Shown here one piece after another: positions 4,623 through 64,000 of a stretch of 64,000 nucleotides of DNA. Location: the NCBI GenBank assembly GCA_034006915.1, contig JAVERW010000004.1:8458-72457 (forward strand). Reading direction: 5' to 3'. Position 1 is the stretch's first letter. The number at the start of each line of letters is the position of its first letter. The stretch is from Desulfuromonadaceae bacterium. GTDB taxonomy: Bacteria > Desulfobacterota > Desulfuromonadia > Desulfuromonadales > Desulfuromonadaceae. Position numbers and translations under genes: made by a program. Under the pieces are notes generated by a model. It was not told where the DNA came from. It worked only from the letters and a program-made list of their open reading frames with translations, and did not search any database.

Positions 4623-4988
4623 CTAACAAGACGGGAGGTTATTCAGCCTCAGAATAACACCTTTTAACCCCAGGTCCTTGCACAGCTTCGTGCATCCGTA
4701 GGGAGACATGACACGAAGAACTTTCTTCTGCGTAACCAGATACCGCTTCCATTGCCCAGGCCGTTCAACCACACATAAAAACTGCTCTGTTTTTCCCCGA
4801 ATTTTATCAGGAACTGAAATCCCCTCTGGCAAAGCACCAGGGTAGTTACTAGGATTGGCGGCGATAGCCGCGTATTCCGGAGAATCGGGCAGGGGAGCCT
4901 GTATTTCTTCAAAGGTAAGCTTAAGATCCTGAATCTCCCGGATTAAAAGCTTTAATTCAGGTTCCTGGATAATATCTTCGCCCCTCAT
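4623..4988 (-). CDS. hypothetical protein (121 aa)
   Basis: ATG ORF downstream of the relaxase on the same strand, with a repeat-rich upstream region. No recognisable motif. Confidence 0.35.
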   Translation of the reverse strand: MRGEDIIQEPELKLLIREIQDLKLTFEEIQAPLPDSPEYAAIAANPSNYPGALPEGISVPDKIRGKTEQFLCVVERPGQWKRYLVTQKKVLRVMSPYGCTKLCKDLGLKGVILRLNNLPSC

Positions 4989-5265
4989 CCCCGCCTATTC
5001 CTCAAGTTATAGTAGCTAAAACCTTCTCACCTGCCGGATATGTGAACCGACAAAATGACATCATTTGGTTTCAAATGATGCAATGTAGTTTCACATTGCA
5101 TCAAATGATTTCATTTACAATAGTGCAGGGTAGTATCAAGTGCATTTAATATCAATATCAATCTATGGATACGCTTTGCCGAAACTTGAAAATATGAATT
5201 GATTGATTGTGATACAGCGCATCTGCCGGGTAACGTCTGTATGGCATATAGTCCATCCTGCCTCG

Positions 5266-8200: not shown

Positions 8201-8724
8201 TTCCGATAGAAGTAGCGAAAATCCACTGCGCGCACCTGCTCTTCTCCGTCAATAATGCACGCATTGGCTATCAGACAATGACTGTGCAAGAGGGGATCAT
8301 TGGATCGACTAAGTGAGTGGAGAATGGGAAGGGCAATCATCCCCTTTGCCTGATAAGAATGGGTAACCCCGCGTTCCTTTTTTACCCCCCGAAAGAAGGC
8401 GTTATCTTCAATGTATTTGAGTACCGCATTGCACGCATTGCGGTGTGCACTTACCGCAGCATCACTGATCTGTTTATCCCCTACGGCAAACAAAATTGAA
8501 ACACTCTTGGGTGCGCTGAAGGTCAGGTCAAAGGCTTTCACTTCCCGGTCCTTAACCAAGTGCGAAAAAGCTTCGCGTTTGGACACATTCAGATGCTCAA
8601 AACCGAAGAGTTTATTCCCGTTTCCCAACACCTCAATAGTGTCCTGCTCCACAGGAAAATAGTAATCATCCCTGGCGTAATAACTCTCAATCCTGCCTGC
8701 CTTAACCGTGATCCCGCTGACCAT
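5266..8724 (-). CDS. MOBF-family conjugative relaxase/helicase (TrwC/TraI-like)
   Basis: 1152 aa. N-terminal relaxase motifs [30 protein letters not shown] (His triad) and [12 protein letters not shown] are colinear with R388 TrwC. Central RecD-like helicase has Walker [15 protein letters not shown] and Walker [10 protein letters not shown]-terminal PLPE/PLSE repeat tail. Confidence 0.92.
5342..5576 (-). repeat. perfect 12-bp tandem coding repeat inside the relaxase 3-prime end
   Basis: On the + strand: 9 units of GGTTCAGATAAC (5342-5449), then 10 units of GGTTCCGGTAAT (5450-5569) plus a partial unit. Encodes (PLPE)x10 followed by (PLSE)x9. Confidence 0.95.
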
Positions 8725-8790
8725 ATTTATCTCCCTATGTGGTGAAAAAACTGTACCCGTTCCAAAGCGCGTGAATACCGCAATCCTGCG

Positions 8791-9033
8791 TCACAGACAT
8801 TTCTGAAAGCCATAGCATTTCAGGTGTTTGCCATCTTTAGGAGCGCCCGCCGGGTTCAGATGTGTGGAGCAGGGCAAAGGTTCACAAAGTGGACCGCAGC
8901 CGTGCTCAATAAAGTGAGCGCAGGCGAACGCCATATCCATGCTCTTCTGTGTGGCATTCACCTCAATGTCTCGTTGGACAGCACTCTTTAAATTCTGCCT
9001 GCTTAACAAAAAGTGGTTTTTTCGTGTTGACAT
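8791..9033 (-). CDS. possible ribbon-helix-helix relaxosome accessory protein
   Basis: Small ORF directly upstream of the relaxase on the same strand. From MSTRKNHFLLSRQNLKSAVQRDIE the beta-strand/helix pattern is RHH-like. Weak, based on position. Confidence 0.25.
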   Translation of the reverse strand: MSTRKNHFLLSRQNLKSAVQRDIEVNATQKSMDMAFACAHFIEHGCGPLCEPLPCSTHLNPAGAPKDGKHLKCYGFQKCL

Positions 9034-9117
9034 TATCAATGCGTTGATCAAGAATATACACAGTCAATATTAAATATCAACGCACAAAAACAAATATAGA
9101 CGGGAGGGAAGGCGGTT
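9034..9117. promoter_or_regulatory. candidate oriT / divergent promoter region
   Basis: AT-rich gap between the divergent relaxase operon and the + strand array. 9-bp inverted repeat TGCGTTGAT (9040-9048) / ATCAACGCA (9076-9084). TTGACA at 9027-9032 with AAGAAT 17 nt downstream. No nic site recognised. Confidence 0.3.
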
Positions 9118-9495
9118 TTGAGAATAGACCAGGAGAGAATCGAAAGGACACTGAAGATGAGCAGAAAAAAGAGCATCGAGAGCAGAATCAAAAACAAGAC
9201 ACTCAAAGATATCCGCAACGAATTGAGATTTTTTGAAAAAGGAGTAATCGCAGATGCCACCCGCGCAGCAGGTGAGATAGGGGTGGCGATATTTAGGGAA
9301 GATCCAGAGCATCAGATCTTCCAGGATTATCCGCAATTCAGAGAAAAGATTTCAGAATTATCCGATGTGCTGGGGCGGATTAACGTCAAAATTAGCAAAC
9401 GAGAAAATGGCACTGATACGGGACAAAAAAACAATCCGGTAAGCACCAAAAAGGAAAATGACTTTGTGCGCGATATCCGGGACGAAGAACTTTAA
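9118..9495 (+). CDS. hypothetical basic protein, first gene of the + strand array (StbA-position)
   Basis: TTG start at 9118, or ATG 9157 (MSRKKSIESRIKNK...). Lys/Arg-rich N-terminus. No motif recognised. Confidence 0.35.
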   Translation: MRIDQERIERTLKMSRKKSIESRIKNKTLKDIRNELRFFEKGVIADATRAAGEIGVAIFREDPEHQIFQDYPQFREKISELSDVLGRINVKISKRENGTDTGQKNNPVSTKKENDFVRDIRDEEL

Positions 9496-9517
9496 AAAAA
9501 GTGAAAGGAGAAATGGC

Positions 9518-10180
9518 ATGCTCACAATGATACACGGAGATAAGGGCGGCGTAGGCAAGTCCATGGTGGCGCAGGTACTGCTGGATTATCGGATCGCAAG
9601 CAGTCAGGAACAAAGCACAATTCTGGTGGAATCTGATACCAGAAATCCGGACGTTTCCAGGCTGTTTGGCAAATATATCCAGGTTGAGGAAATCAACCTA
9701 AAAAGCCACGACGGGTGGATGGAACTGGCAGATCTGCTGGAGCAGAATCGCGACAAAAATGTGGTTGTTTCCCTTCCGGCCGGGGTTGGCAATCACATAG
9801 AAACCGAAGGGCAGTATCTGTCTGATTTGCTCGCAGATCTGGGGCATGAATTGAAGGTGTACTGGCCGATCAACCGTAACAAGGATTCAATAATTCTCCT
9901 GAAAGAATTTATGGAATCGCCCCTGGGCCAGAGAGCAGATCTTACTGTCGTATTGAACGGATTCTTCGGTAAGCAGGAGCAGTTTCAGCTCTGGAACAAA
10001 AGCAATACCCGCCAGCAACTTCTGGAACAATATAACGGCAGGGAGGTGTTTCTCCCCGAATTGCATCACCGGGTCGTGGATGTGATCCGCGAGCCGTATA
10101 CCATGTGCAAGGGCTTGCAATATTCCGTGCGCGTCGAGCTGGAGCGCTGGCTACGCAGGGCTTATCAGATTGTGTATTGA
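9518..10180 (+). CDS. ParA/MinD-like P-loop ATPase (plasmid StbB/TraL-like position)
   Basis: Start at ATG 9518 after GGAG. Deviant Walker A in MIHGDKGGVGKSMVAQ. Confidence 0.65.
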   Translation: MLTMIHGDKGGVGKSMVAQVLLDYRIASSQEQSTILVESDTRNPDVSRLFGKYIQVEEINLKSHDGWMELADLLEQNRDKNVVVSLPAGVGNHIETEGQYLSDLLADLGHELKVYWPINRNKDSIILLKEFMESPLGQRADLTVVLNGFFGKQEQFQLWNKSNTRQQLLEQYNGREVFLPELHHRVVDVIREPYTMCKGLQYSVRVELERWLRRAYQIVY

Positions 10181-10213
10181 GGAATGAGTTTTGGCTGTGA
10201 AACAGGAGGATAT

Positions 10214-10816
10214 ATGAGTAATCATGCAGTTGGATCAAGCAGGCAGGCAGAGATCGACATCTTCGACGAGCTTGATGATGTCGATTTTGAAGAAGAATAC
10301 GTGGATGAAACAGCGTACGTAGAAAACCATGCTTACATGTACAATAGCAATACCAGGACCCCGCTGCAAAAATTTGAAGACTGGATGGGGCGGGAACCAA
10401 CTGCCCAGGAGCGGGAGGTGTTCCACGATCTGCAGCGCAATTTTGACCTTGAAGATGATGATACTCTGTGGGTGATACTGGTGGGACTGGAGTACTATTT
10501 GACTTTGTACAAAGAGATTCCCGAACGCATCAGTGATCAGATATCAACAAATATCGCGGAGACTATTAGCAAGGTAAAAAAACTTGCAGAATCGGAAACC
10601 GATTCATTATTCGTCCACGCCCAAAACATATATCTGGATCTGGATAATTATCATCACAAACTGAAGATCAATGCCCAGAGATCGATTCGGAAAAGCGTTC
10701 AGGAGGAGATCCTGAGGTTGAGAAAAGAGTATCGCCGAAACTGCGTATCCTATATTGCAGTCGGTACGCTGTTCTTCACCATCGCCTGGGCAGGAGTTAA
10801 AGCAGGGTTGCTGTAA
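10214..10816 (+). CDS. hypothetical protein with very acidic N-terminus and C-terminal TM helix
   Basis: ATG 10214 after AGGAGG. Acidic run EIDIFDELDDVDFEEEYVDETAYVE. C-terminal hydrophobic segment YIAVGTLFFTIAWAGVKAGLL. Confidence 0.45.
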   Translation: MSNHAVGSSRQAEIDIFDELDDVDFEEEYVDETAYVENHAYMYNSNTRTPLQKFEDWMGREPTAQEREVFHDLQRNFDLEDDDTLWVILVGLEYYLTLYKEIPERISDQISTNIAETISKVKKLAESETDSLFVHAQNIYLDLDNYHHKLKINAQRSIRKSVQEEILRLRKEYRRNCVSYIAVGTLFFTIAWAGVKAGLL

Positions 10817-10846
10817 TGGTATTCAAAGGAGTATCACTTTAGAGCT

Positions 10847-11653
10847 ATGGCTATCTATTTCACCGCCGATGAGCATTTCGGCCATACAAAAATCATGCAG
10901 TATTGCAAGCGCCCCTTCGATTCCATCGAAGAGATGGACCAGACAATCATCGAGCGCCACAATGCCGTGGTACGCCCGAAAGATACCGTGTATCACTTAG
11001 GGGACTTTTCGTTCTGGAACCACGGAAAATACCTAAGCCGGCTCAAGGGCAAGCATATCCTCATCCTGGGTAACCACGACCGCCTTAAAAACACCAAGGA
11101 GGGTTGGCTGGAAGTCCATCAGGTAATGCGCCTAAAATGGCAGGGCAAGGTTCTGTGGCTCAGCCACTATCCCCATCTCGTATGGCCGCAGAGCCATTAT
11201 GGAAGTTGGCACTTGTTCGGGCATGTGCATGGTTCCATGCAAGGGGTAGGGCTGAGCATGGATGTAGGCGTGGATGCCAACGACTACAGACCCGTGAGCA
11301 TCGAGAAAGTTGCAGAGGTTATGAACCAGCGCGGAGCAACCGCGCAACAATTAAAAGATGCCGTTGACAAAGAATCTCTCAAGCCCTACGCGAAGAAATA
11401 TATCTGGTGGAAAACACCGGAAGAAGCGGTGGAGTACCCGCAGCGCGTAATAGCGCAGGTGATGAATATTGGTACTTTTGAGGATACCCAGGAGCTTGCC
11501 GACCTTGTGGGTAATGATGTGTTGCGCATGGTCATAGAACAAGCCGAGGTCGGACAATTCAATGGGACTTCCTGGTCTTATTGGCATTACCGCCTTGAAC
11601 TGTGCGAGATAGACCAGGTGCCGCCATTGCCTGAACGCAGAGGGTTAAGATGA
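10847..11653 (+). CDS. calcineurin-like metallophosphoesterase with C-terminal unnamed WWKTPEEA domain
   Basis: Motifs FTADEHFGH, HLGDF, LGNHD, GHVHG. The C-terminal ~85 aa (YAKKYIWWKTPEEAVEYPQRV...WSYWHYRL) recurs as ORF 16750-17058. Stop overlaps the next start (ATGA 11650-11653). Confidence 0.8.
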   Translation: MAIYFTADEHFGHTKIMQYCKRPFDSIEEMDQTIIERHNAVVRPKDTVYHLGDFSFWNHGKYLSRLKGKHILILGNHDRLKNTKEGWLEVHQVMRLKWQGKVLWLSHYPHLVWPQSHYGSWHLFGHVHGSMQGVGLSMDVGVDANDYRPVSIEKVAEVMNQRGATAQQLKDAVDKESLKPYAKKYIWWKTPEEAVEYPQRVIAQVMNIGTFEDTQELADLVGNDVLRMVIEQAEVGQFNGTSWSYWHYRLELCEIDQVPPLPERRGLR

Positions 11654-54964: not shown

Positions 54965-56434
54965 TTGGGAAAATACGGTCTTAGTAAATCATTGATCCTA
55001 AAGGGCATGCAATGCCCGAAAGCGCTTTATCTCCAGAAGAACCCGCCAGACTTTGAATTTCCGCCACAGCCTGATCTTGAAGCCAGGTTCCGTGCCGGTC
55101 ATGAAGTCGGCATTCTCGCCCAGCAACTCTTCCCCGGCGGTACCGAAGTCCCCTTTGATGGGCTGTCGATTCCTGAACAGGTTGAGCAAACCCGGCAACT
55201 GATCGAATCGGGCGCCAAAGTTATATACGAAGCCTCGTTCGAGTACGATGGCATTTTCGTCAAGGTCGATATCCTGGTAAAGGACGGCGACGCCTGGCAA
55301 ATCCATGAAGTGAAAATGTCGACCTCGGTCAAGGAGGTCAACCTCAATGACGTGGCAATCCAGTTCTATGTGCTCGGTCAGTGCGGGCTGCTTATTTCGG
55401 GCGCGTACTTGGTGCATATCAATAACCAGTATGTACGGCAGGGGGAGATTGATGTGCAGCAGCTCTTTGCCAGTCAGGACGTGCTGGAAGAAGCTGTTAC
55501 GCGTCAGGCCGGTCTGCAGCAACTGATCGATGATCTGCGCGTCAGCTTGCAGGGTGACGAACCGCAGATTGATATCGGTCCGCATTGCAGCGATCCGTAC
55601 GACTGTGATTTTGCCCCATACTGCTGGCAGCATATCCCGGAGAACTCGATCTTTGATCTGCGTGGCAACGGGGTGAAGAAATGGAGCCTCTACGAGCAGG
55701 GCATTATCCGCTTCGATCAGATTCCCCTGGAGATGCTAAACAAGAACCAGCGCCACCAGGTTGAGGCTACTTTGAATCAGCAGAATTGCATTGACCCGCA
55801 GTCGGTGACAGCTTTTCTGGATACCCTCTGGTATCCGCTCTATCACCTCGATTTCGAAACCTTCAATGCTGCAATCCCCAAGTTTGACGGAACCCGCCCT
55901 TATCAGCAGGTGCCGTTCCAGTTTTCACTGCATGTTCAGCAGGAGGCCGGTGCCGAGCCGGAGCATTACGAATATCTCGCGGCGCCGGACGTTGACCCTC
56001 GGCGTGAACTGATTGAGCAGTTACTTGCTCTGATCCCTGAGGATGGTTGCGTCCTGACCTATAACCAGACGTTTGAGAAGGGGGTACTGCGAAACCTGGC
56101 GGAGTTGTTCCCCGATCTGGCTGATGCGATCAATAATCGTGTGGAGAATGTGCGTGACCTGATGGTGCCGTTCCGCAGGCGAGATGTTTACCGCTGGCAA
56201 ATGCGTGGCTCCTATTCGATCAAAGAAGTGCTTCCGGCGATGGTTCCTGAGCTTTCTTATTCAGGGATGGAGGTTGCCGACGGTATGGCGGCGATGCAGG
56301 CGTATCATGATATGTGTGCGTTGGGGCCTGGGGCGGAGCTGGAGCGATTGCGGGCGGCGATGCTGGAGTATTGTCAGTTGGATACGTTGGCTATGGTGAG
56401 GATATTGGGGGAGTTGGAGTATGTAATTAAGTAG
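54965..56434 (+). CDS. DUF2779-family protein (Cas4/RecB-like PD-(D/E)xK nuclease with Cys cluster)
   Basis: TTG start. N-terminus LSKSLILKGMQCPKALYLQK, EVKMS, Cys cluster HCSDPYDCDFAPYCW, C-terminal LEYCQLDTLAMVRI. Confidence 0.7.
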   Translation: MGKYGLSKSLILKGMQCPKALYLQKNPPDFEFPPQPDLEARFRAGHEVGILAQQLFPGGTEVPFDGLSIPEQVEQTRQLIESGAKVIYEASFEYDGIFVKVDILVKDGDAWQIHEVKMSTSVKEVNLNDVAIQFYVLGQCGLLISGAYLVHINNQYVRQGEIDVQQLFASQDVLEEAVTRQAGLQQLIDDLRVSLQGDEPQIDIGPHCSDPYDCDFAPYCWQHIPENSIFDLRGNGVKKWSLYEQGIIRFDQIPLEMLNKNQRHQVEATLNQQNCIDPQSVTAFLDTLWYPLYHLDFETFNAAIPKFDGTRPYQQVPFQFSLHVQQEAGAEPEHYEYLAAPDVDPRRELIEQLLALIPEDGCVLTYNQTFEKGVLRNLAELFPDLADAINNRVENVRDLMVPFRRRDVYRWQMRGSYSIKEVLPAMVPELSYSGMEVADGMAAMQAYHDMCALGPGAELERLRAAMLEYCQLDTLAMVRILGELEYVIK

Positions 56435-56498
56435 GGTGTCACCCGAATTCAAGTAGGGCGGCCCCGAATACCAAGATTATAGGTTGACGGAGGAAGTT

Positions 56499-58016
56499 AT
56501 GAGAATCGAAGAAGCTGTTGAATGTATGTCAAAGATCAACCTTCACCGTATCCTTGACAGCTATACCAAGGACACCCTCAAGCCAGATGAAGAGACCTCT
56601 CGCAGACGTATCATGTCCGACCGCGATCTCCTTCAAAACGCTGAAAACATTTCAAAAAGAATGCAGTTCTCTGGTGTTTCTTTTGACACAAAAGCGTTGG
56701 CCTTTTTTCTGGTCGAGACGCTTTTGGGTGCTGACCGATGCCAGCTTGATGAGCAAACAATTATTTCAAGCATTACCGACTATGAGAAAAAAATTATAGA
56801 TGAAGCCTCTCATCCCGATATTTTCAAATACAAAAACACTGATGCGGTGAATATCTACAAAACCGTGCTGGAAGTTGCGCTTGAAGATGATGTTATCAGT
56901 GACGATGAGAAACGTCTTCTTGGTAAGCTGAGAGCACATGTAGGCTTGTCACTTAACGACCACCACTTGATCCAAGCTAGTCTGAAAAAATTCCCTAAAT
57001 CCGGAAACGAAATCCATACAGAAAAAGAAATTAAAAATGGATTGACCGATTTACAGAGGCGTGGTGTCGTTTTTTACTGCAACCAATGTAACGGTGGCCC
57101 CGTCTATATGATTCCTGAAGAAATTGTTCCTGGGGTGAAACTAGTCGTTGGGCTTGAGTTATCCAAAGACGCTTATGCTCTTCTACTGGATAAGCTGACA
57201 GTAAATGCCCTTTGGCAAATTCTCGAAACAAATGGTTTGCCGACTTCCGGAAAAAAGGGCGAAAGAATTCAGAGGGTTCAAGGAGCAGACATCCAGCCGA
57301 GTTGTGCTTTAAACGCACTATCAAATGATGAGTTGTACGAACTGTGCAAGAAGCTTCCTGGTGTCAATGTCAGTGGTAGTAAGGCAACGCGAATCAGCAA
57401 TATCATTAGCCACTTTGACAAGCTACGGGTTGTGGCGTGTGACGAAACGTCTGACAGTCGAGAAAAATACTACGAGTATTATGTTGAACTTGCCACCCGT
57501 GACAGGGAAAACTTGCTCACCAATAAGGTGATCAGCAAAGACAAGGATATGGACTTAGCTTTTGAAGAGGGCACACGGTACCTTTTTGAGAAGAAGTTAG
57601 GTCTGATCCTTGAGCCGATGACAGGCAGCGAACATGCAGATGGAGTTTTGAAGCTCCCTAAATCGAAAGAATTGTTCATGTGGGATACAAAGAGCAAAGA
57701 GACCATGTATGAGTTCCCAAATGATCACTTCAATCAATTCAGGCGATATATCTTGAATTCTACTGAACGAGTAAATTGTTTCATGGTGATTGCTCCGAAA
57801 ATTTCGGACAAGGCCGATGAAAATGCGTACCGGCTTAAAACGCAATCTAGCTCGGATACCGATGTGTCTCTCATAAGTGCTGATGATCTCAAGTGGGTTG
57901 CTGGAAATTGGAGTTCATATTCGACTAACGGCAAGTTTTCTCTCGATGTTTTCAATTTTACGGGGGTGCTTGATCGTGGGAGTTTGAAGAAGAGGATGAA
58001 GATCTTTTTGAAGTAG
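56499..58016 (+). CDS. orphan multidomain nuclease: TerB-like motif, two SAP-like motifs, FokI-like PD-(D/E)xK cleavage domain
   Basis: ATG 56499 after GGAGGAAG. SAP-like LTVNALWQILETNGLPTSGKKGERIQRV and LSNDELYELCKKLPGVNVSGSKATRISNIISHF. The C-terminus YYEYYVELATRDRENLL...ADGVL...FMWDTKSK...NQFRRYILNS is colinear with the FokI cleavage domain (YIELIEIARN...PDGAI...VIVDTKAY...EMQRYVEEN). Confidence 0.6.
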   Translation: MRIEEAVECMSKINLHRILDSYTKDTLKPDEETSRRRIMSDRDLLQNAENISKRMQFSGVSFDTKALAFFLVETLLGADRCQLDEQTIISSITDYEKKIIDEASHPDIFKYKNTDAVNIYKTVLEVALEDDVISDDEKRLLGKLRAHVGLSLNDHHLIQASLKKFPKSGNEIHTEKEIKNGLTDLQRRGVVFYCNQCNGGPVYMIPEEIVPGVKLVVGLELSKDAYALLLDKLTVNALWQILETNGLPTSGKKGERIQRVQGADIQPSCALNALSNDELYELCKKLPGVNVSGSKATRISNIISHFDKLRVVACDETSDSREKYYEYYVELATRDRENLLTNKVISKDKDMDLAFEEGTRYLFEKKLGLILEPMTGSEHADGVLKLPKSKELFMWDTKSKETMYEFPNDHFNQFRRYILNSTERVNCFMVIAPKISDKADENAYRLKTQSSSDTDVSLISADDLKWVAGNWSSYSTNGKFSLDVFNFTGVLDRGSLKKRMKIFLK

Positions 58017-58130
58017 ACAGCGTCGGGGTCGGGACAGTTCCGTGGGGCAGTTTCACGGAAGCGTCCTCAAACCCGAATTACTCATAATGCTAATTAATTG
58101 ATGTGTGCCCGGGATTCCCGGACAAACGTT

Positions 58131-58327
58131 TGGAGAATGTGCGTGATCTTATGGTGCGGTTTCGCAGGTGGGATGGAGATCGCTGAAGGCATTGCAGCGA
58201 TGCAGGCTTATCATGATATGTGTGCGTTGGTGCCTGGCGCGAAGTTGGATTGATTGCGGACGGCTATGCTGGAGTATTGTCGGTTGGATTCGTTGGCAAT
58301 GGTTAGGATTTGGGGGGAGTTGATGTG
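58131..58327 (+). repeat. diverged, internally deleted duplicate of the DUF2779 gene 3-prime end
   Basis: Aligns by eye to 56142-56180 and 56266-56427, for example GCGATGCAGGCNTATCATGATATGTGTGCGTTGG and ATGCTGGAGTATTGTC. About 85 nt of the original is missing between the two blocks. Confidence 0.8.
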
Positions 58328-58421
58328 ACTATGAGAACAGCACGCGATCTTGCGATGAATAAATACATATAAATAATTGCTATTTTAAAAAGCCTGCACT
58401 CCAAAAATCGAGGGTAACTAG

Positions 58422-59807
58422 ATGAGCAAAGACATTCAGATTCTAAAATCTCGAGATGACAAAAATCCAGTGATGTTTCAATCTTCCGAAGAGGTAGATT
58501 TGTTTACCCTTGTTGAAGGTCTTGATTGTTCATGGATAAAGCAAGACCAACAGTTTGGCCCTGAAAAGTTGAGGCCACGTATTGAGCCTTGGCTGACGGC
58601 GCTATTTCAATCCGAACATCTTGCATTGCTGGCTGGATCAGGGCTTTCTCACGCAGTTCATCAAGTCGCAACAGGCTCTCTTCTTCCTGGGATGTCCAAG
58701 GTATCCTTCAGCAGCTACAACGCAGAAATAGAAACTAAAGCTAAAGAATCTGCTGAAGAATTAGGAAGAGCAGAAGGGAATATTGAGGATCAAATTCGCG
58801 TGGTAAATGAACTGTTACGTGGACTTGACATACTGGCAGCAAATAATGCTGATTTCAAGAAACCGTTTGAGGCTTTGGATGGTGAACTAAATACAATTCT
58901 TAGTGAATTTGCGACATCAATTCTCCAAGGTGAAAATGGATTAATTACTGCTAGCGAGGAAAAACGTGAAGATGCTTTTAACTACTTAGTTAGTTTCTTG
59001 ATGAGTTTTTCTAGTCGTACAGGAACACGTGACCGACTTCAAATCTTTACGACCAATTATGACCGTTTTATTGAGGCGGGCGCAGATATTGCTGGACTTC
59101 ATCTTCTTGATCGTTTTGTTGGTTCTTTGACACCAATCTTTCGATCCTCACGGTTGGATGTTGATATGCACTATAATCCACCGGGAATCCGTGGTGAACC
59201 TCGATATCTTGAAGGAGTAGCGAGATTCACAAAACTACATGGGTCCCTGGATTGGGTCAGCTCAGAATCTCAGATTAGACGGTTTGGGCTTCCCTTCGGA
59301 GCAGATAAAGTTGAACCGTACCTAGGTGCCCCTGGTCTTTACGGGGCAAAGTCGTTGGATCTAATGATTTACCCAAACGCAGCTAAAGATCGAGAAACTT
59401 CTGCATACCCATACGTTGAATTGTTCAGAGATTTTGCCGCAACTGTTTGTCGTCCCAATAGCACACTGGTCTTGTTTGGATATAGCTTCGGTGATGAGCA
59501 CATTAATCGAGTTATTGAAGATATGTTAACTATCCCTTCAACACACTTGGTTGTTTTTTCGCATAGTGATCCTCTTGGGAGAATTATGAGTACCTACAAA
59601 AAACTTGGACGCCATGCGCAGATTACTTTGATGATTGGGACTCACTTGGGTGACCTTAGAACAGTTGTAGACAACTACCTACCGAAACCGGCTATTGATC
59701 GAACGACATTTAAAATGGGCGAGTTACTAAAGGCGAGATGGGGTACAGGTCAAGCTGATACACCTGAAGCCAGCAAAGAAGTGGATGCGGGGTGGTCTGA
59801 TGAGTAA
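58422..59807 (+). CDS. SIR2-like (SIR2_2 family) protein of a Sir2-HerA defence pair
   Basis: LALLAGSGLSHAV, IFTTNYDRFIE, KLHGSLDW, LVLFGYSFGDEHINRVI. Overlaps the herA start by 8 nt. Confidence 0.75.
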   Translation: MSKDIQILKSRDDKNPVMFQSSEEVDLFTLVEGLDCSWIKQDQQFGPEKLRPRIEPWLTALFQSEHLALLAGSGLSHAVHQVATGSLLPGMSKVSFSSYNAEIETKAKESAEELGRAEGNIEDQIRVVNELLRGLDILAANNADFKKPFEALDGELNTILSEFATSILQGENGLITASEEKREDAFNYLVSFLMSFSSRTGTRDRLQIFTTNYDRFIEAGADIAGLHLLDRFVGSLTPIFRSSRLDVDMHYNPPGIRGEPRYLEGVARFTKLHGSLDWVSSESQIRRFGLPFGADKVEPYLGAPGLYGAKSLDLMIYPNAAKDRETSAYPYVELFRDFAATVCRPNSTLVLFGYSFGDEHINRVIEDMLTIPSTHLVVFSHSDPLGRIMSTYKKLGRHAQITLMIGTHLGDLRTVVDNYLPKPAIDRTTFKMGELLKARWGTGQADTPEASKEVDAGWSDE

Positions 59808-62049
59808 AACCCTCTTCGAACATGCTGGAACATTGCGTATTGGTTCTGTGGACTTTGTATCACCAGATGAAATCAAAGTTTTACTTGATATTGAGGCCCC
59901 TGACTCAGTCGCACTAAACACTGGTGGGCCCATGCCCTTCCCAAGGGTAAATAGTTACGTTTTGATCCCAGTTGATGATGGCTACCTTGTTGGCCAAATC
60001 GAATGGCTCACCGTGGAACGATCTTCTTTCCCTAAACGTCGTGGCATGCAAGATTTTGGAGTTATAGATATGCCATATCCACTACGGCGTATGAGCCTGA
60101 ATCCACTTGGAACACTCAGGAAGAGATCGAACAGGACCGAAAAATATGTATTTCGTCGTGGTGCAGATGCGTTTCCGTCTATTGGTTCAGGAGTCCTGCT
60201 TCCAACAGATACACAGCTGCGTTCTATAGTCGAATCCGGTGATAGACGTAGAGTTAAGCTTGGGACAAGCCCTTTAGCGGGGCACGCTGAAGTTTGTGTG
60301 GACCCGGATCGTATTTTCGGTCGGCATCTTGCGGTGCTTGGGAATACTGGAAGCGGTAAATCATGTACAGTTTCGGGTTTGATCCATTGGTCGCTAGAAC
60401 AAGCACAAGCGTTCAGTGGGAAAACACCCAATGCACGTTTTATAGTCCTAGACCCCAATGGAGAATACGCGAATGCTTTTGGTGATACTGCTAGAATCTT
60501 TCAAGTTAACTCGGAGACGAATCCACTCAAAGTTCCGTTATGGTTTTGGAATAGTGCTGAGTGGTGCGCTTTTACACATGCAAGCGCTAGAGCTCAAGTA
60601 CCTCTGATTAAGCGGGCTCTTCGTTCGATGCGAAACGAAGAATTTGAAGTCAGTGACAATATTGATATTGCAGCTAAACGGTTTCTGGGGATCATTCTTC
60701 AATCCATTATCTCTAGTAAAAATTCTGGAGAGCCATTCTATAAGGAGTTTCCTGATGCCAAAAACTTCATGGACCGCTTGTCTCTTTGGAGTACAAGCGT
60801 TGGTGAATACGATGAAATAATAGATTTTGATTTAAGCGAATTACGCAGAACACTCGATGAGTCGGTTGCTGCGCACAAAGTCAAGCAGCCTAATGGTTGG
60901 ATTAATTATTCAGTCTTTTTGGCTAGTGAAGTTGACGCGTTGATCGATTGTCTACGAACCACCTACGAGGGCCTCGGAGGAAGTCCCAACGATTTATTGC
61001 CTAAAAATGAAGATGTACCAGTAAAGTTTCCTGGAAACATCTTCGTTGATTTTCTCGAAGGTCTTGCTCAAGAAACAGGCAACGAACAATATGTAGAATT
61101 TCTGCTCGCGCGTATAAGAACCATGCTGGCAGATACTAGGATGAGTTCTGTTATCAGTGATGATGAGGACATTACGCTAGAAAGTTGGTTGATGCAATAT
61201 ATTGGAGGTAGTACAGGTGAAGGTGGATGCGTTTCTGTTATAGATCTCTCCCTAGTTCCAGCAGAGATAATCCACCTAGTTACATCAGTGATTTCGAGAA
61301 TGTGCTTTGAGTCATTGCAACGTTATCGAAAGTTGAAAGCGAAAACGCTGCCCACTGTTTTGGTTATGGAGGAAGCACACACATTCATCAAAAAGTATCG
61401 TGAAAATTCAGAAGATCAAAACGTTTCAGCTATCTGCTGCCAAGTCTTTGAGAAGATAGCCCGTGAGGGCCGTAAATTTGGACTTGGGCTAGTTCTCTCA
61501 TCTCAACGACCTTCCGAGTTGTCACCTACTGTACTCTCTCAGTGCAATACGTTCCTCTTGCATAGAATTAGCAACGATAGAGACCAAGAATTAGTCCACA
61601 AGTTGGTTCCCGACAATCTCAGAGGTCTTCTCAGAGAGCTTCCATCTTTGCCTTCACAAAATGCTATTCTGCTAGGTTGGGCTTCCGAACTACCGGTTCT
61701 GGTAAGAATGAATGATTTGCCGAAATCTCATCAGCCTCATTCGGCAGATCCAGACTATTGGGATGTCTGGGTAGGTCAGGACGAAGATGGCAGTATGGTC
61801 AAACGAGATGTTAATTGGAAGGAAATATCTTCTGAATGGCAGAATAAAATGCTTACTGAAGAGCAATGTATTCACTGTGAAGATTTCCTTACAGAGCAAG
61901 AAAGCGAGTTTTGCAATACCGGTGGTGTAGAGTGTTGTGATTGTATTTGCACTAAGTGTTTAAAGGCTTATGTGAATTGCTCGGGTTGCGGATGCAAAAC
62001 TCAAAATGAAGACATTTGTGATGTTTGCAGAGATCATATAGAAGATTAA
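59800..62049 (+). CDS. herA: HerA/DUF87-type ATPase of a Sir2-HerA pair, with C-terminal Cys-rich extension
   Basis: ATG 59800. N-terminal barrel-like GTLRIGSVDFVSPDEIKVLLD, Walker A LAVLGNTGSGKSCTVSGL, Walker B VLVMEEAHTF. The last 60 aa contain 13 Cys. Confidence 0.8.
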   Translation: MSKTLFEHAGTLRIGSVDFVSPDEIKVLLDIEAPDSVALNTGGPMPFPRVNSYVLIPVDDGYLVGQIEWLTVERSSFPKRRGMQDFGVIDMPYPLRRMSLNPLGTLRKRSNRTEKYVFRRGADAFPSIGSGVLLPTDTQLRSIVESGDRRRVKLGTSPLAGHAEVCVDPDRIFGRHLAVLGNTGSGKSCTVSGLIHWSLEQAQAFSGKTPNARFIVLDPNGEYANAFGDTARIFQVNSETNPLKVPLWFWNSAEWCAFTHASARAQVPLIKRALRSMRNEEFEVSDNIDIAAKRFLGIILQSIISSKNSGEPFYKEFPDAKNFMDRLSLWSTSVGEYDEIIDFDLSELRRTLDESVAAHKVKQPNGWINYSVFLASEVDALIDCLRTTYEGLGGSPNDLLPKNEDVPVKFPGNIFVDFLEGLAQETGNEQYVEFLLARIRTMLADTRMSSVISDDEDITLESWLMQYIGGSTGEGGCVSVIDLSLVPAEIIHLVTSVISRMCFESLQRYRKLKAKTLPTVLVMEEAHTFIKKYRENSEDQNVSAICCQVFEKIAREGRKFGLGLVLSSQRPSELSPTVLSQCNTFLLHRISNDRDQELVHKLVPDNLRGLLRELPSLPSQNAILLGWASELPVLVRMNDLPKSHQPHSADPDYWDVWVGQDEDGSMVKRDVNWKEISSEWQNKMLTEEQCIHCEDFLTEQESEFCNTGGVECCDCICTKCLKAYVNCSGCGCKTQNEDICDVCRDHIED

Positions 62050-62072: not shown

Positions 62073-63320
62073 ATGCGTATTATACATACATCTGACATCC
62101 ACCTTGGAAAAACCTATCGCAACTCTTCTGGCGAGGTGGTGCGCTACATCGATTTTTTTGCATGTCTTTCCGGTATTGTCGATGATGCAATTCAGGGGAA
62201 AGTCAAAGCAGTCCTGATCGGCGGTGATCTGTTCCACGTCGGTCAGATTCTGCCGAAAACCTTCGCTAGAACGATTGAAACCCTACAACCCCTTAAAGAC
62301 GCAAACATCCCCTGCATTGCCATTGAGGGCAACCACGACTGGATTCATCGTCGTGACAACATCTCGTGGATGGAAGCGCTATCTCAGATGGGTTACATCA
62401 AGCTGTTGCGCCCCTCTCGAACTGAAGACGGCGGCTACCGCTTCGATCCCTTCGACGAAGAGACCGGTATGGGTGGCCATGTCGAAATCGATGGCGTCAA
62501 TATCTATGGCCTTGGCTATATCGGTGCCCAGGCTGGCAGTCATGTCGAACGCATCTGTGAAGCGGTCACCACGGAGAACAACCTGCTGCTCTTCCACGTT
62601 GGTATTTGGAGTTACTCGCCGGTCGAGATCGGCAACATGAAGCTCGAAGAGGCGCATCCATTGGCCGATAAATTCGGCTATGTCGCCCTCGGTCACGGTC
62701 ACAAACCCTACGTCATCGAATCCCCGGAGAAAAAACCCTACGCCTTTAATCCCGGTTCCCCGGAACGGGTCAACTTCGGTGAAGAGAAGTACGACAAGGG
62801 CTACTACCTCGTCACCTATGAAAATGGTGAATTCAGCCCGGAATTCAGGAATACTTCACCGCGTCCGATGTTTGTAGAAACGATTGATCTGAGTGGTGCC
62901 GAAAATGCCGATCAGGCCCTCAACATGTTTCGTGAGCAAGTTGTTGCCAAGGTTGAAAGCTCGAGTGATGAGCGTCAACCACTGCTGGAACTGAAGCTAG
63001 TAGGTCGCGTTGGCTTCCATCCTTTTGAGCTGGGTCGTGAACGCCTGAAGGCTGTTCTTGAGGATCTGCTCAATCCTCTGCATGTCGAGATCAAAAACCA
63101 TCTCTCACTGGTCAGCAGCACCGACGAAGGGGATGGGGTCAAGAAAAGCCTGGAGGAGATCGAGCAGGAGGTCCTGCGTGACCTGATCAAAACCGGCAGC
63201 GACTACCAGGGACGTGAAGTTGAATTGATCCGCCTCTCCATCACACTGAAGAATGCCGTACAAAAGGGTGATGTCGATGGAGATGAACTGCTTGACCTTC
63301 TGAACGCGGAGGGGAATTGA
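62073..63320 (+). CDS. sbcD: SbcD/Mre11-family nuclease
   Basis: MRIIHTSDIHLGK, GGDLFH, IEGNHD, GHGH metallophosphoesterase motifs. Starts 23 nt after the herA stop. Confidence 0.8.
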   Translation: MRIIHTSDIHLGKTYRNSSGEVVRYIDFFACLSGIVDDAIQGKVKAVLIGGDLFHVGQILPKTFARTIETLQPLKDANIPCIAIEGNHDWIHRRDNISWMEALSQMGYIKLLRPSRTEDGGYRFDPFDEETGMGGHVEIDGVNIYGLGYIGAQAGSHVERICEAVTTENNLLLFHVGIWSYSPVEIGNMKLEEAHPLADKFGYVALGHGHKPYVIESPEKKPYAFNPGSPERVNFGEEKYDKGYYLVTYENGEFSPEFRNTSPRPMFVETIDLSGAENADQALNMFREQVVAKVESSSDERQPLLELKLVGRVGFHPFELGRERLKAVLEDLLNPLHVEIKNHLSLVSSTDEGDGVKKSLEEIEQEVLRDLIKTGSDYQGREVELIRLSITLKNAVQKGDVDGDELLDLLNAEGN

Positions 63321-64000
63321 TGCAGATCCTTTCCATCCATCTCAAAAACATCAAGTCACACCGAGACGCCGAACTGACGTTCTCTCCCGGCATCAACGTC
63401 CTGTCCGGTCCGAATGGTGTCGGCAAGAGCACGATTTTTGAAGCGATCGGCTACGCCATGTTTGGCGTGGATGCGCAGAACTTTGTCGGAAATGTTGAGC
63501 GTTTCATCTCAATCGGCTACAAGCGCGGCGAGATAGCTGTGGTCTTTGAAGTGGCTGACAGTGAGCGCTTTAAAGTCAGTCGCACCGTCGGTACGCCTTC
63601 CAAATGGCTTCTGGCCAAAGAGGCTGGGGGCACGTTTGAGGTTGAAGAACACAAGGACAGCAAAGAAACCGAGGCACGCCTAAAGGAGTTGCTCGGGCTG
63701 AATTCTGGTCGGTCACTCGCCGAACAGTTCGAACTCGTGATCGGTCCCTTCCAGCATGAATTCCTCGGTCCTTTTGTTATCAAGCAGCCCTCCAAACGCC
63801 GTGACAAGTTTGACGAGATTCTTGGAATCGACACCTGGCGCAAGACCTTTACCCAGACCAAGGTGCTGGCCAGCGCTATCAAGGCGAAGGTGGACTCTCT
63901 TGAAAGTGCGATTGGTCCTCTTCAGGATCAGGTGGCCGAACTACCGGCGAAGAAGGTAGAGTACAAAACAGCAAAGAAGGATCTTGATCAGGCTGAGGGC
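63320..64000 (+). CDS. sbcC: SbcC/Rad50-family ATPase, 3-prime truncated by window edge
   Basis: ATG 63320 overlaps the sbcD TGA. MQILSIHLKNIKSHRDAELTFSPGINVLSGPNGVGKSTIFEAIGYAMFG (Walker A). The frame stays open to nt 64000. Not in the ORF track because no stop is reached. Confidence 0.8.
   Translation, partial: MQILSIHLKNIKSHRDAELTFSPGINVLSGPNGVGKSTIFEAIGYAMFGVDAQNFVGNVERFISIGYKRGEIAVVFEVADSERFKVSRTVGTPSKWLLAKEAGGTFEVEEHKDSKETEARLKELLGLNSGRSLAEQFELVIGPFQHEFLGPFVIKQPSKRRDKFDEILGIDTWRKTFTQTKVLASAIKAKVDSLESAIGPLQDQVAELPAKKVEYKTAKKDLDQAEG

What the first reader, a model, noticed from the sequence alone, without database searches (positions are those of the whole stretch)
58422..62049. Sir2-HerA defence pair whose HerA carries a 13-Cys C-terminal extension
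Seen: the SIR2_2-type protein (TTNYD, KLHGSLDW, GYSFGDEHI) overlaps by 8 nt a HerA/DUF87 ATPase (GNTGSGKS, VMEEAHTF). Established: Sir2-HerA is a described anti-phage system in which a HerA hexamer scaffolds Sir2 NADase. Unusual here: the last 60 aa of HerA (nt 61867-62046) read CIHCEDFLTEQESEFCNTGGVECCDCICTKCLKAYVNCSGCGCKTQNEDICDVCRDHIED. That is 13 Cys plus 2 His, suggesting a multi-zinc or Fe-S module that I do not associate with HerA. It could be a sensor or an interaction platform for the adjacent SbcCD-like proteins.
Basis: partly seen in the sequence, partly recalled or inferred. Interest (0 to 1): 0.6.

Follow-up and report, generated by a model that had tools for sequence, protein, structure and literature searches.

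The report
SIR2-HerA defence pair with zinc tail
This is a genuine SIR2-HerA anti-phage gene pair in which the HerA motor ends in a rare, portable, cysteine-rich (probably two-zinc) mini-domain instead of the usual acidic floppy tail; the domain is most likely a regulatory or sensor add-on and is not tied to the neighbouring SbcCD-like genes.

Summary
SIR2 (58422-59807) overlaps HerA (59800-62049) by 8 nt, and the last 60 HerA residues hold 13 Cys and 2 His.

The tail is a conserved module. Nine Cys are invariant (four CxxC pairs plus one) in five HerA proteins. It lies beyond the best PADLOC HerA profile, has no Pfam match, and is absent from every solved HerA.

It is rare. Five of about 210 retrieved relatives carry it. 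A core tree needs at least 3 gains or losses. The other relatives end in a short acidic, disordered tail.

A profile search of 1.84 billion representative proteins found the module in only two other proteins:
- A RelA/SpoT-type candidate defence protein carries it at its C-terminus.
- A protein of unknown function carries its core as tandem repeats.

The module is acidic (net charge -2 to -16), so direct DNA binding is unlikely.

It is not coupled to the downstream Mre11/Rad50-like pair:
- Tailed HerAs also sit next to Septu or PDC-S06.
- A tail-less HerA sits next to another SbcCD-like pair.
- The Mre11/Rad50-like pair mostly occurs alone and differs sharply in GC3.

Best reading: a portable two-zinc regulatory or sensor domain on a known system. 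This is a new variant of a known kind, of moderate interest.

The parts
58422..59807 (+). SIR2-family NADase gene (461 aa) of the SIR2-HerA pair
   Evidence: ORF. Pfam SIR2_2 at 2.6e-08. PADLOC SIR2 PDLC04079 at 1.3e-157. NCBIfam SIR2_antiphage at 2.4e-36, below the equivalog cut-off. Aligns to E. coli Nezha Sir2 8j4u_A at 3e-23, with FTTNYD and KLHGSL conserved.
59800..62049 (+). HerA/DUF87 ATPase gene (749 aa; an alternative upstream ATG lies at 59785)
   Evidence: ORF. Start inferred from homologues. PADLOC HerA PDLC04098 at 1.1e-255 over aa 6-682. Pfam DUF87 at 4e-22. PDB 8wiv_A (Paenibacillus SIR2-HerA HerA) at 1.1e-51. Foldseek best hits are defence HerAs at E about 1e-17.
61858..62046 (+). 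C-terminal acidic Cys-rich module (63 aa aligned; 13 Cys, 9 of them invariant: C4, C7, C19, C31, C34, C41, C44, C54, C57 of the module). Proposed to be two tandem Zn(Cys)4 sites.
   Evidence: Alignment A1. No Pfam match. Lies beyond the PADLOC profile. AF2 pLDDT 76.7, with knuckle-plus-helix elements. Net charge -11. GC 0.38, GC3 0.30.
58350..58377 (+). Weak sigma-70-like promoter match upstream of SIR2
   Evidence: 9 of 12 matches. The number of such sites in the region is no higher than in shuffles, so this is only a candidate.
62073..63320 (+). Mre11/SbcD-like phosphoesterase (415 aa). A neighbour, probably a separate module.
   Evidence: Pfam Metallophos at 1e-12. The best NCBIfam hits are archaeal Mre11 models, far below cut-off. 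It starts 23 nt after the herA stop with no terminator-like site between. GC3 is 0.59 against 0.33-0.37 for SIR2-HerA. Orthologues (69-83% identity) occur in 6 other genomes of the 400 sampled (a seventh match is only 35% identical); 5 of the 6 have no SIR2-HerA next to them.
63317..64000 (+). N-terminal part of a Rad50/SbcC-like ATPase (813 aa in full; it runs past the window end)
   Evidence: Pfam AAA_23 at 3e-23. NCBIfam Rad50 models, below cut-off. Full ORF at L014 1375-3816.
58124..58322 (+). Diverged duplicate of the 3' end of the DUF2779 gene. A scar showing that the gene at 56484-58016 was inserted between DUF2779 and SIR2.
Evidence: Direct repeats D1 and D2, 81-86% identity.

Best explanation
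The two genes are a SIR2-HerA abortive-infection system: a SIR2 NADase held and regulated by a hexameric HerA ATPase.

In this copy the short acidic, disordered C-terminal tail that almost all relatives carry is replaced. In its place is a folded, acidic module of about 57 residues, built from two similar halves. Each half is a CxxC knuckle followed by a D-x-[IVM]-CxxC helix start.

The module most likely binds two zinc ions:
- Zn1: C4, C7, C31, C34.
- Zn2: C41, C44, C54, C57.

An 8-residue linker joins it to the last conserved helix, in the segment that aligns with the start of the C-terminal 'arm' of Paenibacillus HerA. Six copies would therefore decorate each HerA ring.

I propose that it is a portable regulatory or sensor domain. 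It would bind a protein cue, probably phage-derived. Alternatively it would act as a structured acidic gate. Either way it would control when the HerA ATPase/nickase and the SIR2 NADase fire.

What is shown and what is inferred:
- Shown: gene identities, conservation of the module, its rarity, its patchy distribution on the HerA tree, its presence on an unrelated RelA/SpoT-type defence candidate, its acidity, and its lack of coupling to the SbcCD-like neighbours.
- Inferred: zinc binding, the pairing of ligands, and the sensor or gating role.
For: System identity.

The module is conserved: 9 invariant Cys plus invariant L, T, E, S, F, V, E, D, L, Y, TQN and D in five HerAs.

The module lies outside the known HerA:
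- The PADLOC profile ends at aa 682.
- There is no Pfam match.
- No PDB HerA matches the tail profile.

It replaces an acidic tail. In 199 tail-less relatives the C-terminal extension has a median length of 17 aa and a median net charge of -4.

It is rare and patchy:
- 5 of 210 retrieved relatives carry it.
- The core tree needs at least 3 changes, forced by starred branches. The window's HerA is nested among 17 tail-less rows (support 99*).
- None of the 4 other HerA-bearing genomes among the 400 sampled in the phylum has a match past residue 697.

It is portable. A profile search of 1.84e9 representative proteins gave only two hits:
- P0121 carries the module at aa 318-377. Its N-terminal part is RelA_SpoT (PF04607, 1.3e-22) and PADLOC PDC-S33 (1.3e-22). 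It also hits small alarmone synthetases and CapRel 7ztb.
- P0122 carries tandem repeats of the core YVCxxCLxxYxxCxxC.

Precedents:
- The C-terminal ZFD-like domain of CapRel is its phage sensor and autoinhibitor (PMC9712102).
- RAZR has a Cys4 zinc-ribbon domain and assembles around rings of phage trigger proteins (PMC13017515).

The AF2 secondary structure shows a hairpin around each first CxxC and a helix starting at each second CxxC. The module is acidic, with net charge -2 to -16.
Against: - There is no experimental data. Zinc binding is inferred from motifs only.
- Foldseek found no significant structural neighbour for the module (best E = 1).
- The AF2 models are of moderate confidence. 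The tail alone has pLDDT 76.7 from 5 sequences, and the five models range from 37 to 77. Within the full-length model the tail scores 53-74.
- The link to sensing rests on analogy and on one other carrier protein, whose genomic context I could not retrieve.
- The invariant C19 has no assigned role.
- The module could be purely structural.
Confidence: 0.55

Rival explanations
1. The tail is an adaptor that docks the downstream Mre11/Rad50 (SbcCD)-like proteins onto HerA, making a four-gene machine reminiscent of the archaeal herA-mre11-rad50-nurA operon.
For: - In the window and in L001 the tailed herA is followed, 23-57 nt downstream and co-directionally, by orthologous Mre11-like (71% identity) and Rad50-like genes.
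- No terminator-like site lies between herA and the Mre11-like gene.
- The best NCBIfam hits of the pair are archaeal Mre11/Rad50 models.
Against: - Tailed HerAs in L005 and L004 are followed by Septu (PtuA/PtuB) and PDC-S06 instead.
- The nearest relative (L015, 81% identity) lacks the tail, yet is followed by a non-orthologous Metallophos + AAA_27 pair.
- Six other sampled genomes carry orthologues of the pair. In five of them it has no SIR2-HerA nearby, and in four of those five it is a stand-alone two-gene unit.
- None of the 4 other HerA-positive genomes in the phylum sample has the pair.
- GC3 is 0.59-0.63 for the pair against 0.30-0.37 for SIR2-HerA and the tail. L001 shows the same contrast.
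Confidence: 0.1
2. The tail is a purely structural element that stabilises the HerA hexamer or the SIR2-HerA supercomplex. It would act as a zinc-stapled substitute for the distal part of the C-terminal 'arm', with no sensing role.
For: - In Paenibacillus sp. 453MF HerA the C-terminal arm (aa 576-696) wraps the neighbouring RecA-like domain and stabilises the split-spiral hexamer (PMC11472057).
- The window's HerA aligns to that chain only up to residue 608 (query residue 688), so the Cys module takes the place of the remainder of the arm.
Against: - About 98% of relatives manage with a short disordered acidic tail at this position.
- The module also occurs on a non-HerA protein.
- Its conserved non-Cys residues and strong acidity suggest a binding surface rather than a brace.
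Confidence: 0.2
3. The tail is a DNA-binding zinc ribbon that recognises DNA ends or phage DNA entering the HerA pore.
For: - Zinc ribbons often bind nucleic acids (established knowledge).
- DNA ends activate the ATPase of E. coli type III Sir2-HerA (PMC13434337).
Against: All six known copies of the module are acidic, with net charge -2 to -16 and only 3-9 Lys+Arg.
Confidence: 0.08
4. The 13 Cys bind an iron-sulfur cluster and make HerA redox- or iron-responsive.
For: The window's copy has four extra Cys (C26, C27, C29, C46) packed around the conserved ones.
Against: - C26 and C29 are unique to the window's copy. C27 is shared only with P0121. C46 is missing from P0106 and P0121.
- The nine invariant Cys form four CxxC pairs plus one, as in Zn(Cys)4 knuckles.
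- No CxxCxxCxxxCP-type motif is present (the motif comparison rests on general knowledge).
Confidence: 0.05

Closest known systems
SIR2-HerA (Nezha) anti-phage systems, e.g. Paenibacillus sp. 453MF (PDB 8wiv/8wld; PMC11472057) and E. coli Nezha (8j4u, 8su9)
   Same: - Two overlapping co-directional genes.
- SIR2_2-type NADase with the N/D/H motifs.
- HerA with Walker A/B, beta-barrel, RecA-like and helical-bundle parts.
- These are the best sequence and fold matches.
   Different: - Sequence identity to solved HerAs is only about 20%.
- The C-terminus carries a Cys-rich module absent from all solved HerAs and from the matching PADLOC profile.
- Paenibacillus HerA has a helical arm there instead.
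CapRel(SJ46)-type fused toxin-antitoxin RelA/SpoT proteins with a C-terminal (pseudo-)zinc-finger sensor (PMC9712102)
   Same: A small zinc-finger-like domain at the C-terminus of a defence effector serves as phage sensor and autoinhibitor. The window's module itself sits at the C-terminus of a RelA/SpoT-type candidate defence protein, P0121.
   Different: - CapRel's pseudo-ZFD lacks the cysteines, and no sequence similarity to the window's module was detected.
- The effector here is a HerA ATPase with a SIR2 partner, not a pyrophosphokinase.
- The role of the module in P0121 is itself untested.
RAZR (ring-activated zinc-finger RNase; PMC13017515)
   Same: A defence protein that carries a Cys4 zinc-ribbon domain and assembles into an active ring around rings of phage trigger proteins.
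   Different: - The zinc domain of RAZR is N-terminal.
- The effector is a HEPN RNase.
- No sequence relationship to the window's module was shown.
Archaeal herA-mre11-rad50-nurA DNA-end-resection operon
   Same: HerA lies next to Mre11-like and Rad50-like genes, whose best NCBIfam hits are archaeal Mre11/Rad50 models.
   Different: - The partner of HerA is SIR2, not NurA.
- The Mre11/Rad50-like pair is not co-inherited with HerA.
- The pair differs from SIR2-HerA in composition.

Membership tests
SIR2-HerA (Nezha) defence system | SIR2_2-type protein with the catalytic Asn/Asp and His motifs | tested here: met
   FTTNYD and KLHGSLDW are present. They align to the same motifs of E. coli Nezha Sir2 8j4u_A. 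PADLOC SIR2 at 1.3e-157.
SIR2-HerA (Nezha) defence system | HerA/DUF87 ASCE ATPase with Walker A and B | tested here: met
   GNTGSGKS and VLVMEEAH are present. PADLOC HerA at 1.1e-255. PDB defence HerAs at 1e-51 to 1e-34. Foldseek E about 1e-17.
SIR2-HerA (Nezha) defence system | The two genes are adjacent, co-directional and co-conserved | tested here: met
   8-nt overlap. SIR2 lies directly upstream of HerA in loci L001, L004-L008, L015 and L016.
SIR2-HerA (Nezha) defence system | Phage protection by NAD+ depletion, and assembly into a SIR2 12/14-mer with a HerA hexamer | not testable with these tools
   Needs phage assays, NADase assays and cryo-EM.
NCBIfam equivalogs SIR2_antiphage / HerA_antiphage_2 | Score above the curated cut-off | tested here: not met
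   125.6 bits against a cut-off of 500, and 235.7 bits against 850. This is a different subfamily from the curated equivalogs.
Zn(Cys)4 zinc-ribbon / treble-clef fingers | Pairs of CxxC knuckles conserved across homologues | tested here: met
   Four invariant CxxC pairs in five HerA tails, also present in P0121.
Zn(Cys)4 zinc-ribbon / treble-clef fingers | Fold similarity to a known zinc-binding domain | tested here: inconclusive
   Foldseek against PDB gave best E = 1. The weak hits are RING, PHD and C2H2 proteins. The AF2 model has pLDDT 76.7.
Zn(Cys)4 zinc-ribbon / treble-clef fingers | Metal actually bound | not testable with these tools
   Needs metal analysis of purified protein.
Archaeal HerA-NurA-Mre11-Rad50 end-resection module | NurA nuclease partner, and co-inheritance of HerA with Mre11/Rad50 | tested here: not met
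   The partner is SIR2. The Mre11/Rad50-like pair is found without HerA in 5 of the 6 other genomes that carry orthologues, and HerA is found without the pair in 4 of 4 other genomes.

The most novel reading that the evidence does not exclude
The Cys module is a plug-and-play phage-sensing zinc domain that recombination moves between unrelated abortive-infection effectors: HerA of SIR2-HerA, and a RelA/SpoT toxSAS-like protein. It would define the trigger specificity of whichever effector carries it. More broadly, the C-terminal tip of this HerA family would be its trigger or regulatory port. That port would be occupied in other members by an acidic tail that in some copies is a near-exact mimic of the SSB C-terminal tip (..FDDDIPF).
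Probability: 0.3. Interest if true: 0.7.

Novelty: new variant of a known kind. Interest (0 to 1): 0.45.

Why it matters
How most SIR2-HerA systems sense infection is still largely open. Phage SSB and Gp5.9 were identified as triggers only for one E. coli subtype in 2026 (PMC13434337).

A discrete, rare, exchangeable C-terminal domain on HerA gives a concrete handle. It can be deleted, swapped or used as bait to find the cue. The same domain also sits on a RelA/SpoT-type candidate defence protein.

The finding also points to the HerA C-terminus as a variable regulatory port in this large family. The module itself appears to be an undescribed domain family: it has no Pfam model and no structural neighbour.

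Tried and rejected
- Word-indexed search with the tail region alone returned only the query. The tail shares too few exact 5-mers with its relatives, so the result is uninformative.
- Pattern scans with the tail alignment found nothing in 185,579 species genomes or in viral contigs. In metagenomes they found only L001 again, plus a spurious off-frame match in a high-GC membrane-protein gene (L011).
- A weak second match in the window's own genome (C143, E = 0.02) is a Cys-poor protein of unrelated sequence, taken as chance.
- The genomic context of P0121 could not be retrieved.
- Foldseek of the tail model gave no significant match.
- The full-length AF2 monomer (pLDDT 69.6) did not place the tail confidently. 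It was used only to confirm the HerA fold.
- I rejected the reading that the pair is a housekeeping SbcCD. It occurs in only 8 of 401 sampled genomes of the phylum.
- I rejected the reading that the tail is ancestral and simply retained here. The window's HerA core sits inside a tail-less clade, and its tail is only 52-59% identical to the others.
- Gain cannot be told from repeated loss on an unrooted tree.
Full report
**Observation**

The ORF list shows a 461-aa ORF at 58422-59807 (+) and a 754/749-aa ORF at 59785/59800-62049 (+).
- The first ORF contains FTTNYD, KLHGSLDW and GYSFGDEHI.
- The second contains GNTGSGKS and VLVMEEAHTF.
- The last 60 residues read exactly as quoted, with 13 Cys and 2 His. 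The 686-residue core has 9 Cys.

**Identity of the pair**

| Library | SIR2 | HerA |
|---|---|---|
| Pfam | SIR2_2, 2.6e-08 | DUF87, 4e-22 |
| PADLOC | PDLC04079, 1.3e-157 | PDLC04098, 1.1e-255 |
| NCBIfam | SIR2_antiphage, well below the equivalog cut-off | HerA_antiphage_2, well below the equivalog cut-off |

The NCBIfam result means this is a different subfamily from the curated ones.

The best solved relatives are defence proteins:
- HerA matches Paenibacillus sp. 453MF SIR2-HerA HerA (8wiv, 1.1e-51), followed by DUF4297-HerA and E. coli Nezha HerA.
- SIR2 matches E. coli Nezha Sir2 (8j4u_A, 3e-23), with the NYD and HG motifs aligned.
- An AF2 model of full-length HerA (pLDDT 69.6) finds the same defence HerAs by Foldseek at E about 1e-17.

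**The tail is a real, conserved module outside the known HerA**

- Pfam finds nothing in the tail, even at E<=10.
- A profile of the tail finds no HerA chain in the PDB at E<=10.
- Paenibacillus HerA has a C-terminal helical 'arm' (aa 576-696) that wraps the neighbouring subunit (PMC11472057). The window's HerA aligns to that chain only up to residue 608, which corresponds to query residue 688. The Cys module therefore takes the place of the rest of the arm.

Four other HerA proteins from independent metagenome contigs carry a homologous tail: P0100, P0101, P0106 and P0113. The alignment (A1) has 23 invariant columns.
- Nine are Cys: C4, C7, C19, C31, C34, C41, C44, C54, C57. That is four CxxC pairs plus one.
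- The others include L11, T12, E15, S16, F18, V24, E25, D28, L35, Y38, T48-Q49-N50 and D55.
- Of the window's other four Cys, C26 and C29 are unique to this copy. C27 recurs only in P0121. C46 is shared with three of the four other tailed HerAs.

The module looks internally duplicated: CxxC, a linker, then D-x-[IVM]-CxxC, twice.

AF2 of the tail (pLDDT 76.7 for the best of five models, which ranged from 37 to 77) puts a hairpin at each first CxxC and a helix start at each second CxxC. That is the treble-clef/zinc-ribbon arrangement.

I therefore infer two Zn(Cys)4 sites, C4/C7/C31/C34 and C41/C44/C54/C57. Foldseek gives no significant neighbour (best E = 1; the weak hits are RING, PHD and C2H2 proteins). 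The fold class is therefore not established.

**Rarity and distribution**

- Of 210 HerA relatives retrieved in two searches, 205 have 0-1 Cys in their last 70 residues and 5 have 9-13.
- Tail-less relatives end, after the conserved W-x-x-I-x-D-W-Q, in a short acidic tail (median 17 aa, median net charge -4).
- On a maximum-likelihood tree of the core (tail removed; 83 rows) the tail needs at least three changes, forced by well-supported branches. The window's HerA sits in an 18-row clade with 17 tail-less members (support 99*). P0101 is sister to a tail-less protein (98*). P0100, P0106 and P0113 form a third group.
- Segment-wise identities show the window's core is closest to tail-less proteins throughout (76-100% in most segments). 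Its tail resembles only the distant tailed group (48-57%).
- N-termini shared between otherwise different lineages (P0011 and P0100) show that recombination is common in this family.
- Domain transfer by recombination is the simpler reading, but repeated loss cannot be excluded on an unrooted tree.
- In a sample of 400 other genomes of the same phylum, 4 have this HerA family. None has a match beyond residue 697.

**The module elsewhere**

A profile HMM of the tail, scored against 1.84 billion representative proteins, gave only two hits.
- P0121 (382 aa) carries the module at its C-terminus (aa 318-377, E = 2.4e-09), with all nine conserved Cys. Its N-terminal half is a RelA_SpoT synthetase domain (PF04607, 1.3e-22). 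It matches the PADLOC candidate defence family PDC-S33 (1.3e-22). It also hits small alarmone synthetases and, more weakly, CapRel(SJ46) 7ztb.
- P0122 (393 aa; no Pfam or PADLOC match) contains tandem repeats of the module's core, YVCxxCLxxYxxCxxC (five stretches matched by the profile).

The library holds one representative per 50%-identity cluster. Other fusions may therefore be hidden, and the rarity is an upper-level impression rather than a census.

In CapRel(SJ46) the C-terminal zinc-finger-like domain is the phage-capsid sensor and the autoinhibitor (PMC9712102). RAZR has a Cys4 zinc-ribbon domain and assembles around rings of phage trigger proteins (PMC13017515). These are precedents, not evidence for this module.

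**Charge**

All six copies of the module are acidic (net -2 to -16, with 3-9 Lys+Arg). This argues against direct DNA binding. It fits protein binding or an acidic gate, the same chemical character as the tail it replaces.

**Relation to the SbcCD-like neighbours**

The downstream genes (62073-63320, and 63317 onward; 415 and 813 aa) are a Metallophos nuclease and an SMC-type ATPase. Their best NCBIfam hits are archaeal Mre11/Rad50 models, far below cut-off.

For a link:
- herA and the Mre11-like gene are 23 nt apart with no terminator-like site between.
- L001 has the same four-gene order, with an Mre11-like protein 71% identical.

Against a link to the tail:
- L005 (tailed) is followed by Septu PtuA/PtuB, and L004 (tailed) by PDC-S06.
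- L015 is the closest relative (81%) and is tail-less. It is followed by a non-orthologous Metallophos + AAA_27 pair, only 20% identical to the window's Mre11-like protein.
- L007, L008 and L016 (tail-less) lie inside type I R-M operons.
- The pair matches in 8 of 401 sampled genomes including the window's own; in six others the Mre11-like protein is 69-83% identical, and a seventh match (G074) is only 35% identical. Five of those six have no SIR2-HerA nearby, and in four of the five the pair is a stand-alone two-gene unit.
- GC3 is 0.59-0.63 for the pair and 0.64 for the upstream DUF2779 gene. It is 0.33-0.37 for SIR2-HerA and 0.30 for the tail. L001 shows the same contrast.

SIR2-HerA thus looks like a cassette dropped between DUF2779 and the Mre11/Rad50-like pair.
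- In L026 the same frame (DUF2779 64% identical, Mre11-like 74%) holds a different SIR2-HerA subtype (24-36% identity), interrupted by an IS.
- The duplicated DUF2779 3' end at 58124-58322 marks a further insertion, of the gene at 56484-58016.

SbcCD-like pairs of two non-orthologous kinds do recur next to SIR2-HerA: in the window, L001 and L026, and in L015. That is worth a separate look, but it is independent of the tail.

**Mechanism proposed**

- Shown: a complete SIR2-HerA pair; a conserved, acidic, four-CxxC module in place of the usual acidic tail; its patchy, recombination-like distribution; its presence on an unrelated candidate defence effector.
- Inferred: two zinc sites; six copies exposed per HerA ring just after the arm segment; a role as a regulatory or sensor domain that binds a (phage) protein cue, or acts as a structured acidic gate, to control HerA ATPase/nickase and hence the SIR2 NADase.

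For E. coli type III Sir2-HerA, phage SSBs and Gp5.9 are triggers, and DNA ends relieve an ATP checkpoint (PMC13434337). Whether the window's subfamily works the same way is unknown.

My probabilities:
- Sensor or regulatory zinc domain: about 0.55.
- Structural brace: 0.2.
- Adaptor for Mre11/Rad50-like proteins: 0.1.
- DNA binding: 0.08.
- Fe-S: 0.05.

**Novelty and verdict**

The system is known. The C-terminal zinc module on HerA is not described in the papers I could search (the 2026 classification paper never mentions zinc or cysteine). It has no family model. This is a new variant of a known kind, with moderate interest.

Noticed in passing
Relatives of the window's HerA (P0054, P0055, P0076, P0082, P0086, P0088, P0108, P0155 and others); position equivalent to window 61860-62049: Tail-less relatives end in an acidic disordered tail. 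39 of 199 end in acidic...F, and about ten end in the exact tip of bacterial SSB (..SFDDDIPF..DDDIPF..DDIPF). The SSB tip sequence is from my own knowledge. Phage SSBs were recently reported as triggers of E. coli type III Sir2-HerA (PMC13434337). An SSB-tail mimic on HerA may be a bait or an autoinhibitory element.
   Followed up: partly
window 62073-64000 and beyond (contig C111; L014 131-3816): The Mre11/Rad50-like pair (415 + 813 aa) is an accessory, sporadically distributed unit, matched in 8 of 401 sampled genomes of the phylum. Its best matches are archaeal Mre11/Rad50 models, and neither protein matches a PADLOC family over its full length (the Rad50-like protein gives only partial LmuB-type SMC matches). 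Its GC3 differs from SIR2-HerA. It is a candidate independent defence or repair module.
   Followed up: partly
L015 6924-9244; L026 782-9578; L001 12287-15972: SbcCD-like pairs of two non-orthologous kinds lie directly downstream of SIR2-HerA in 4 of the roughly 10 loci examined. One kind is Mre11/Rad50-like; the other is Metallophos + AAA_27, YhaO/YhaN-like. The association recurs independently of the Cys tail.
   Followed up: partly
L026 (G078:C76) 4787-11131: The same frame as the window (DUF2779 64% identical ... Mre11-like 74% identical) holds a different SIR2-HerA subtype (24-36% identity), whose herA is split by an IS (rve integrase). This suggests a cassette-exchange hotspot.
   Followed up: partly
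window 58124-58322 versus 56135-56416: A diverged duplicate (81-86%) of the DUF2779 3' end flanks the 510-aa SAP-domain gene at 56484-58016.
   Followed up: yes
L007 1869-15234; L008 5271-13064; L016: Close tail-less SIR2-HerA pairs are embedded inside type I R-M operons, between hsdS and hsdR.
   Followed up: no
P0122 (393 aa, metagenomic): A protein of unknown function with no Pfam or PADLOC match has a C-terminal half made of tandem repeats of YVCxxCLxxYxxCxxC, the core of the HerA tail module (five stretches matched by the tail profile).
   Followed up: no
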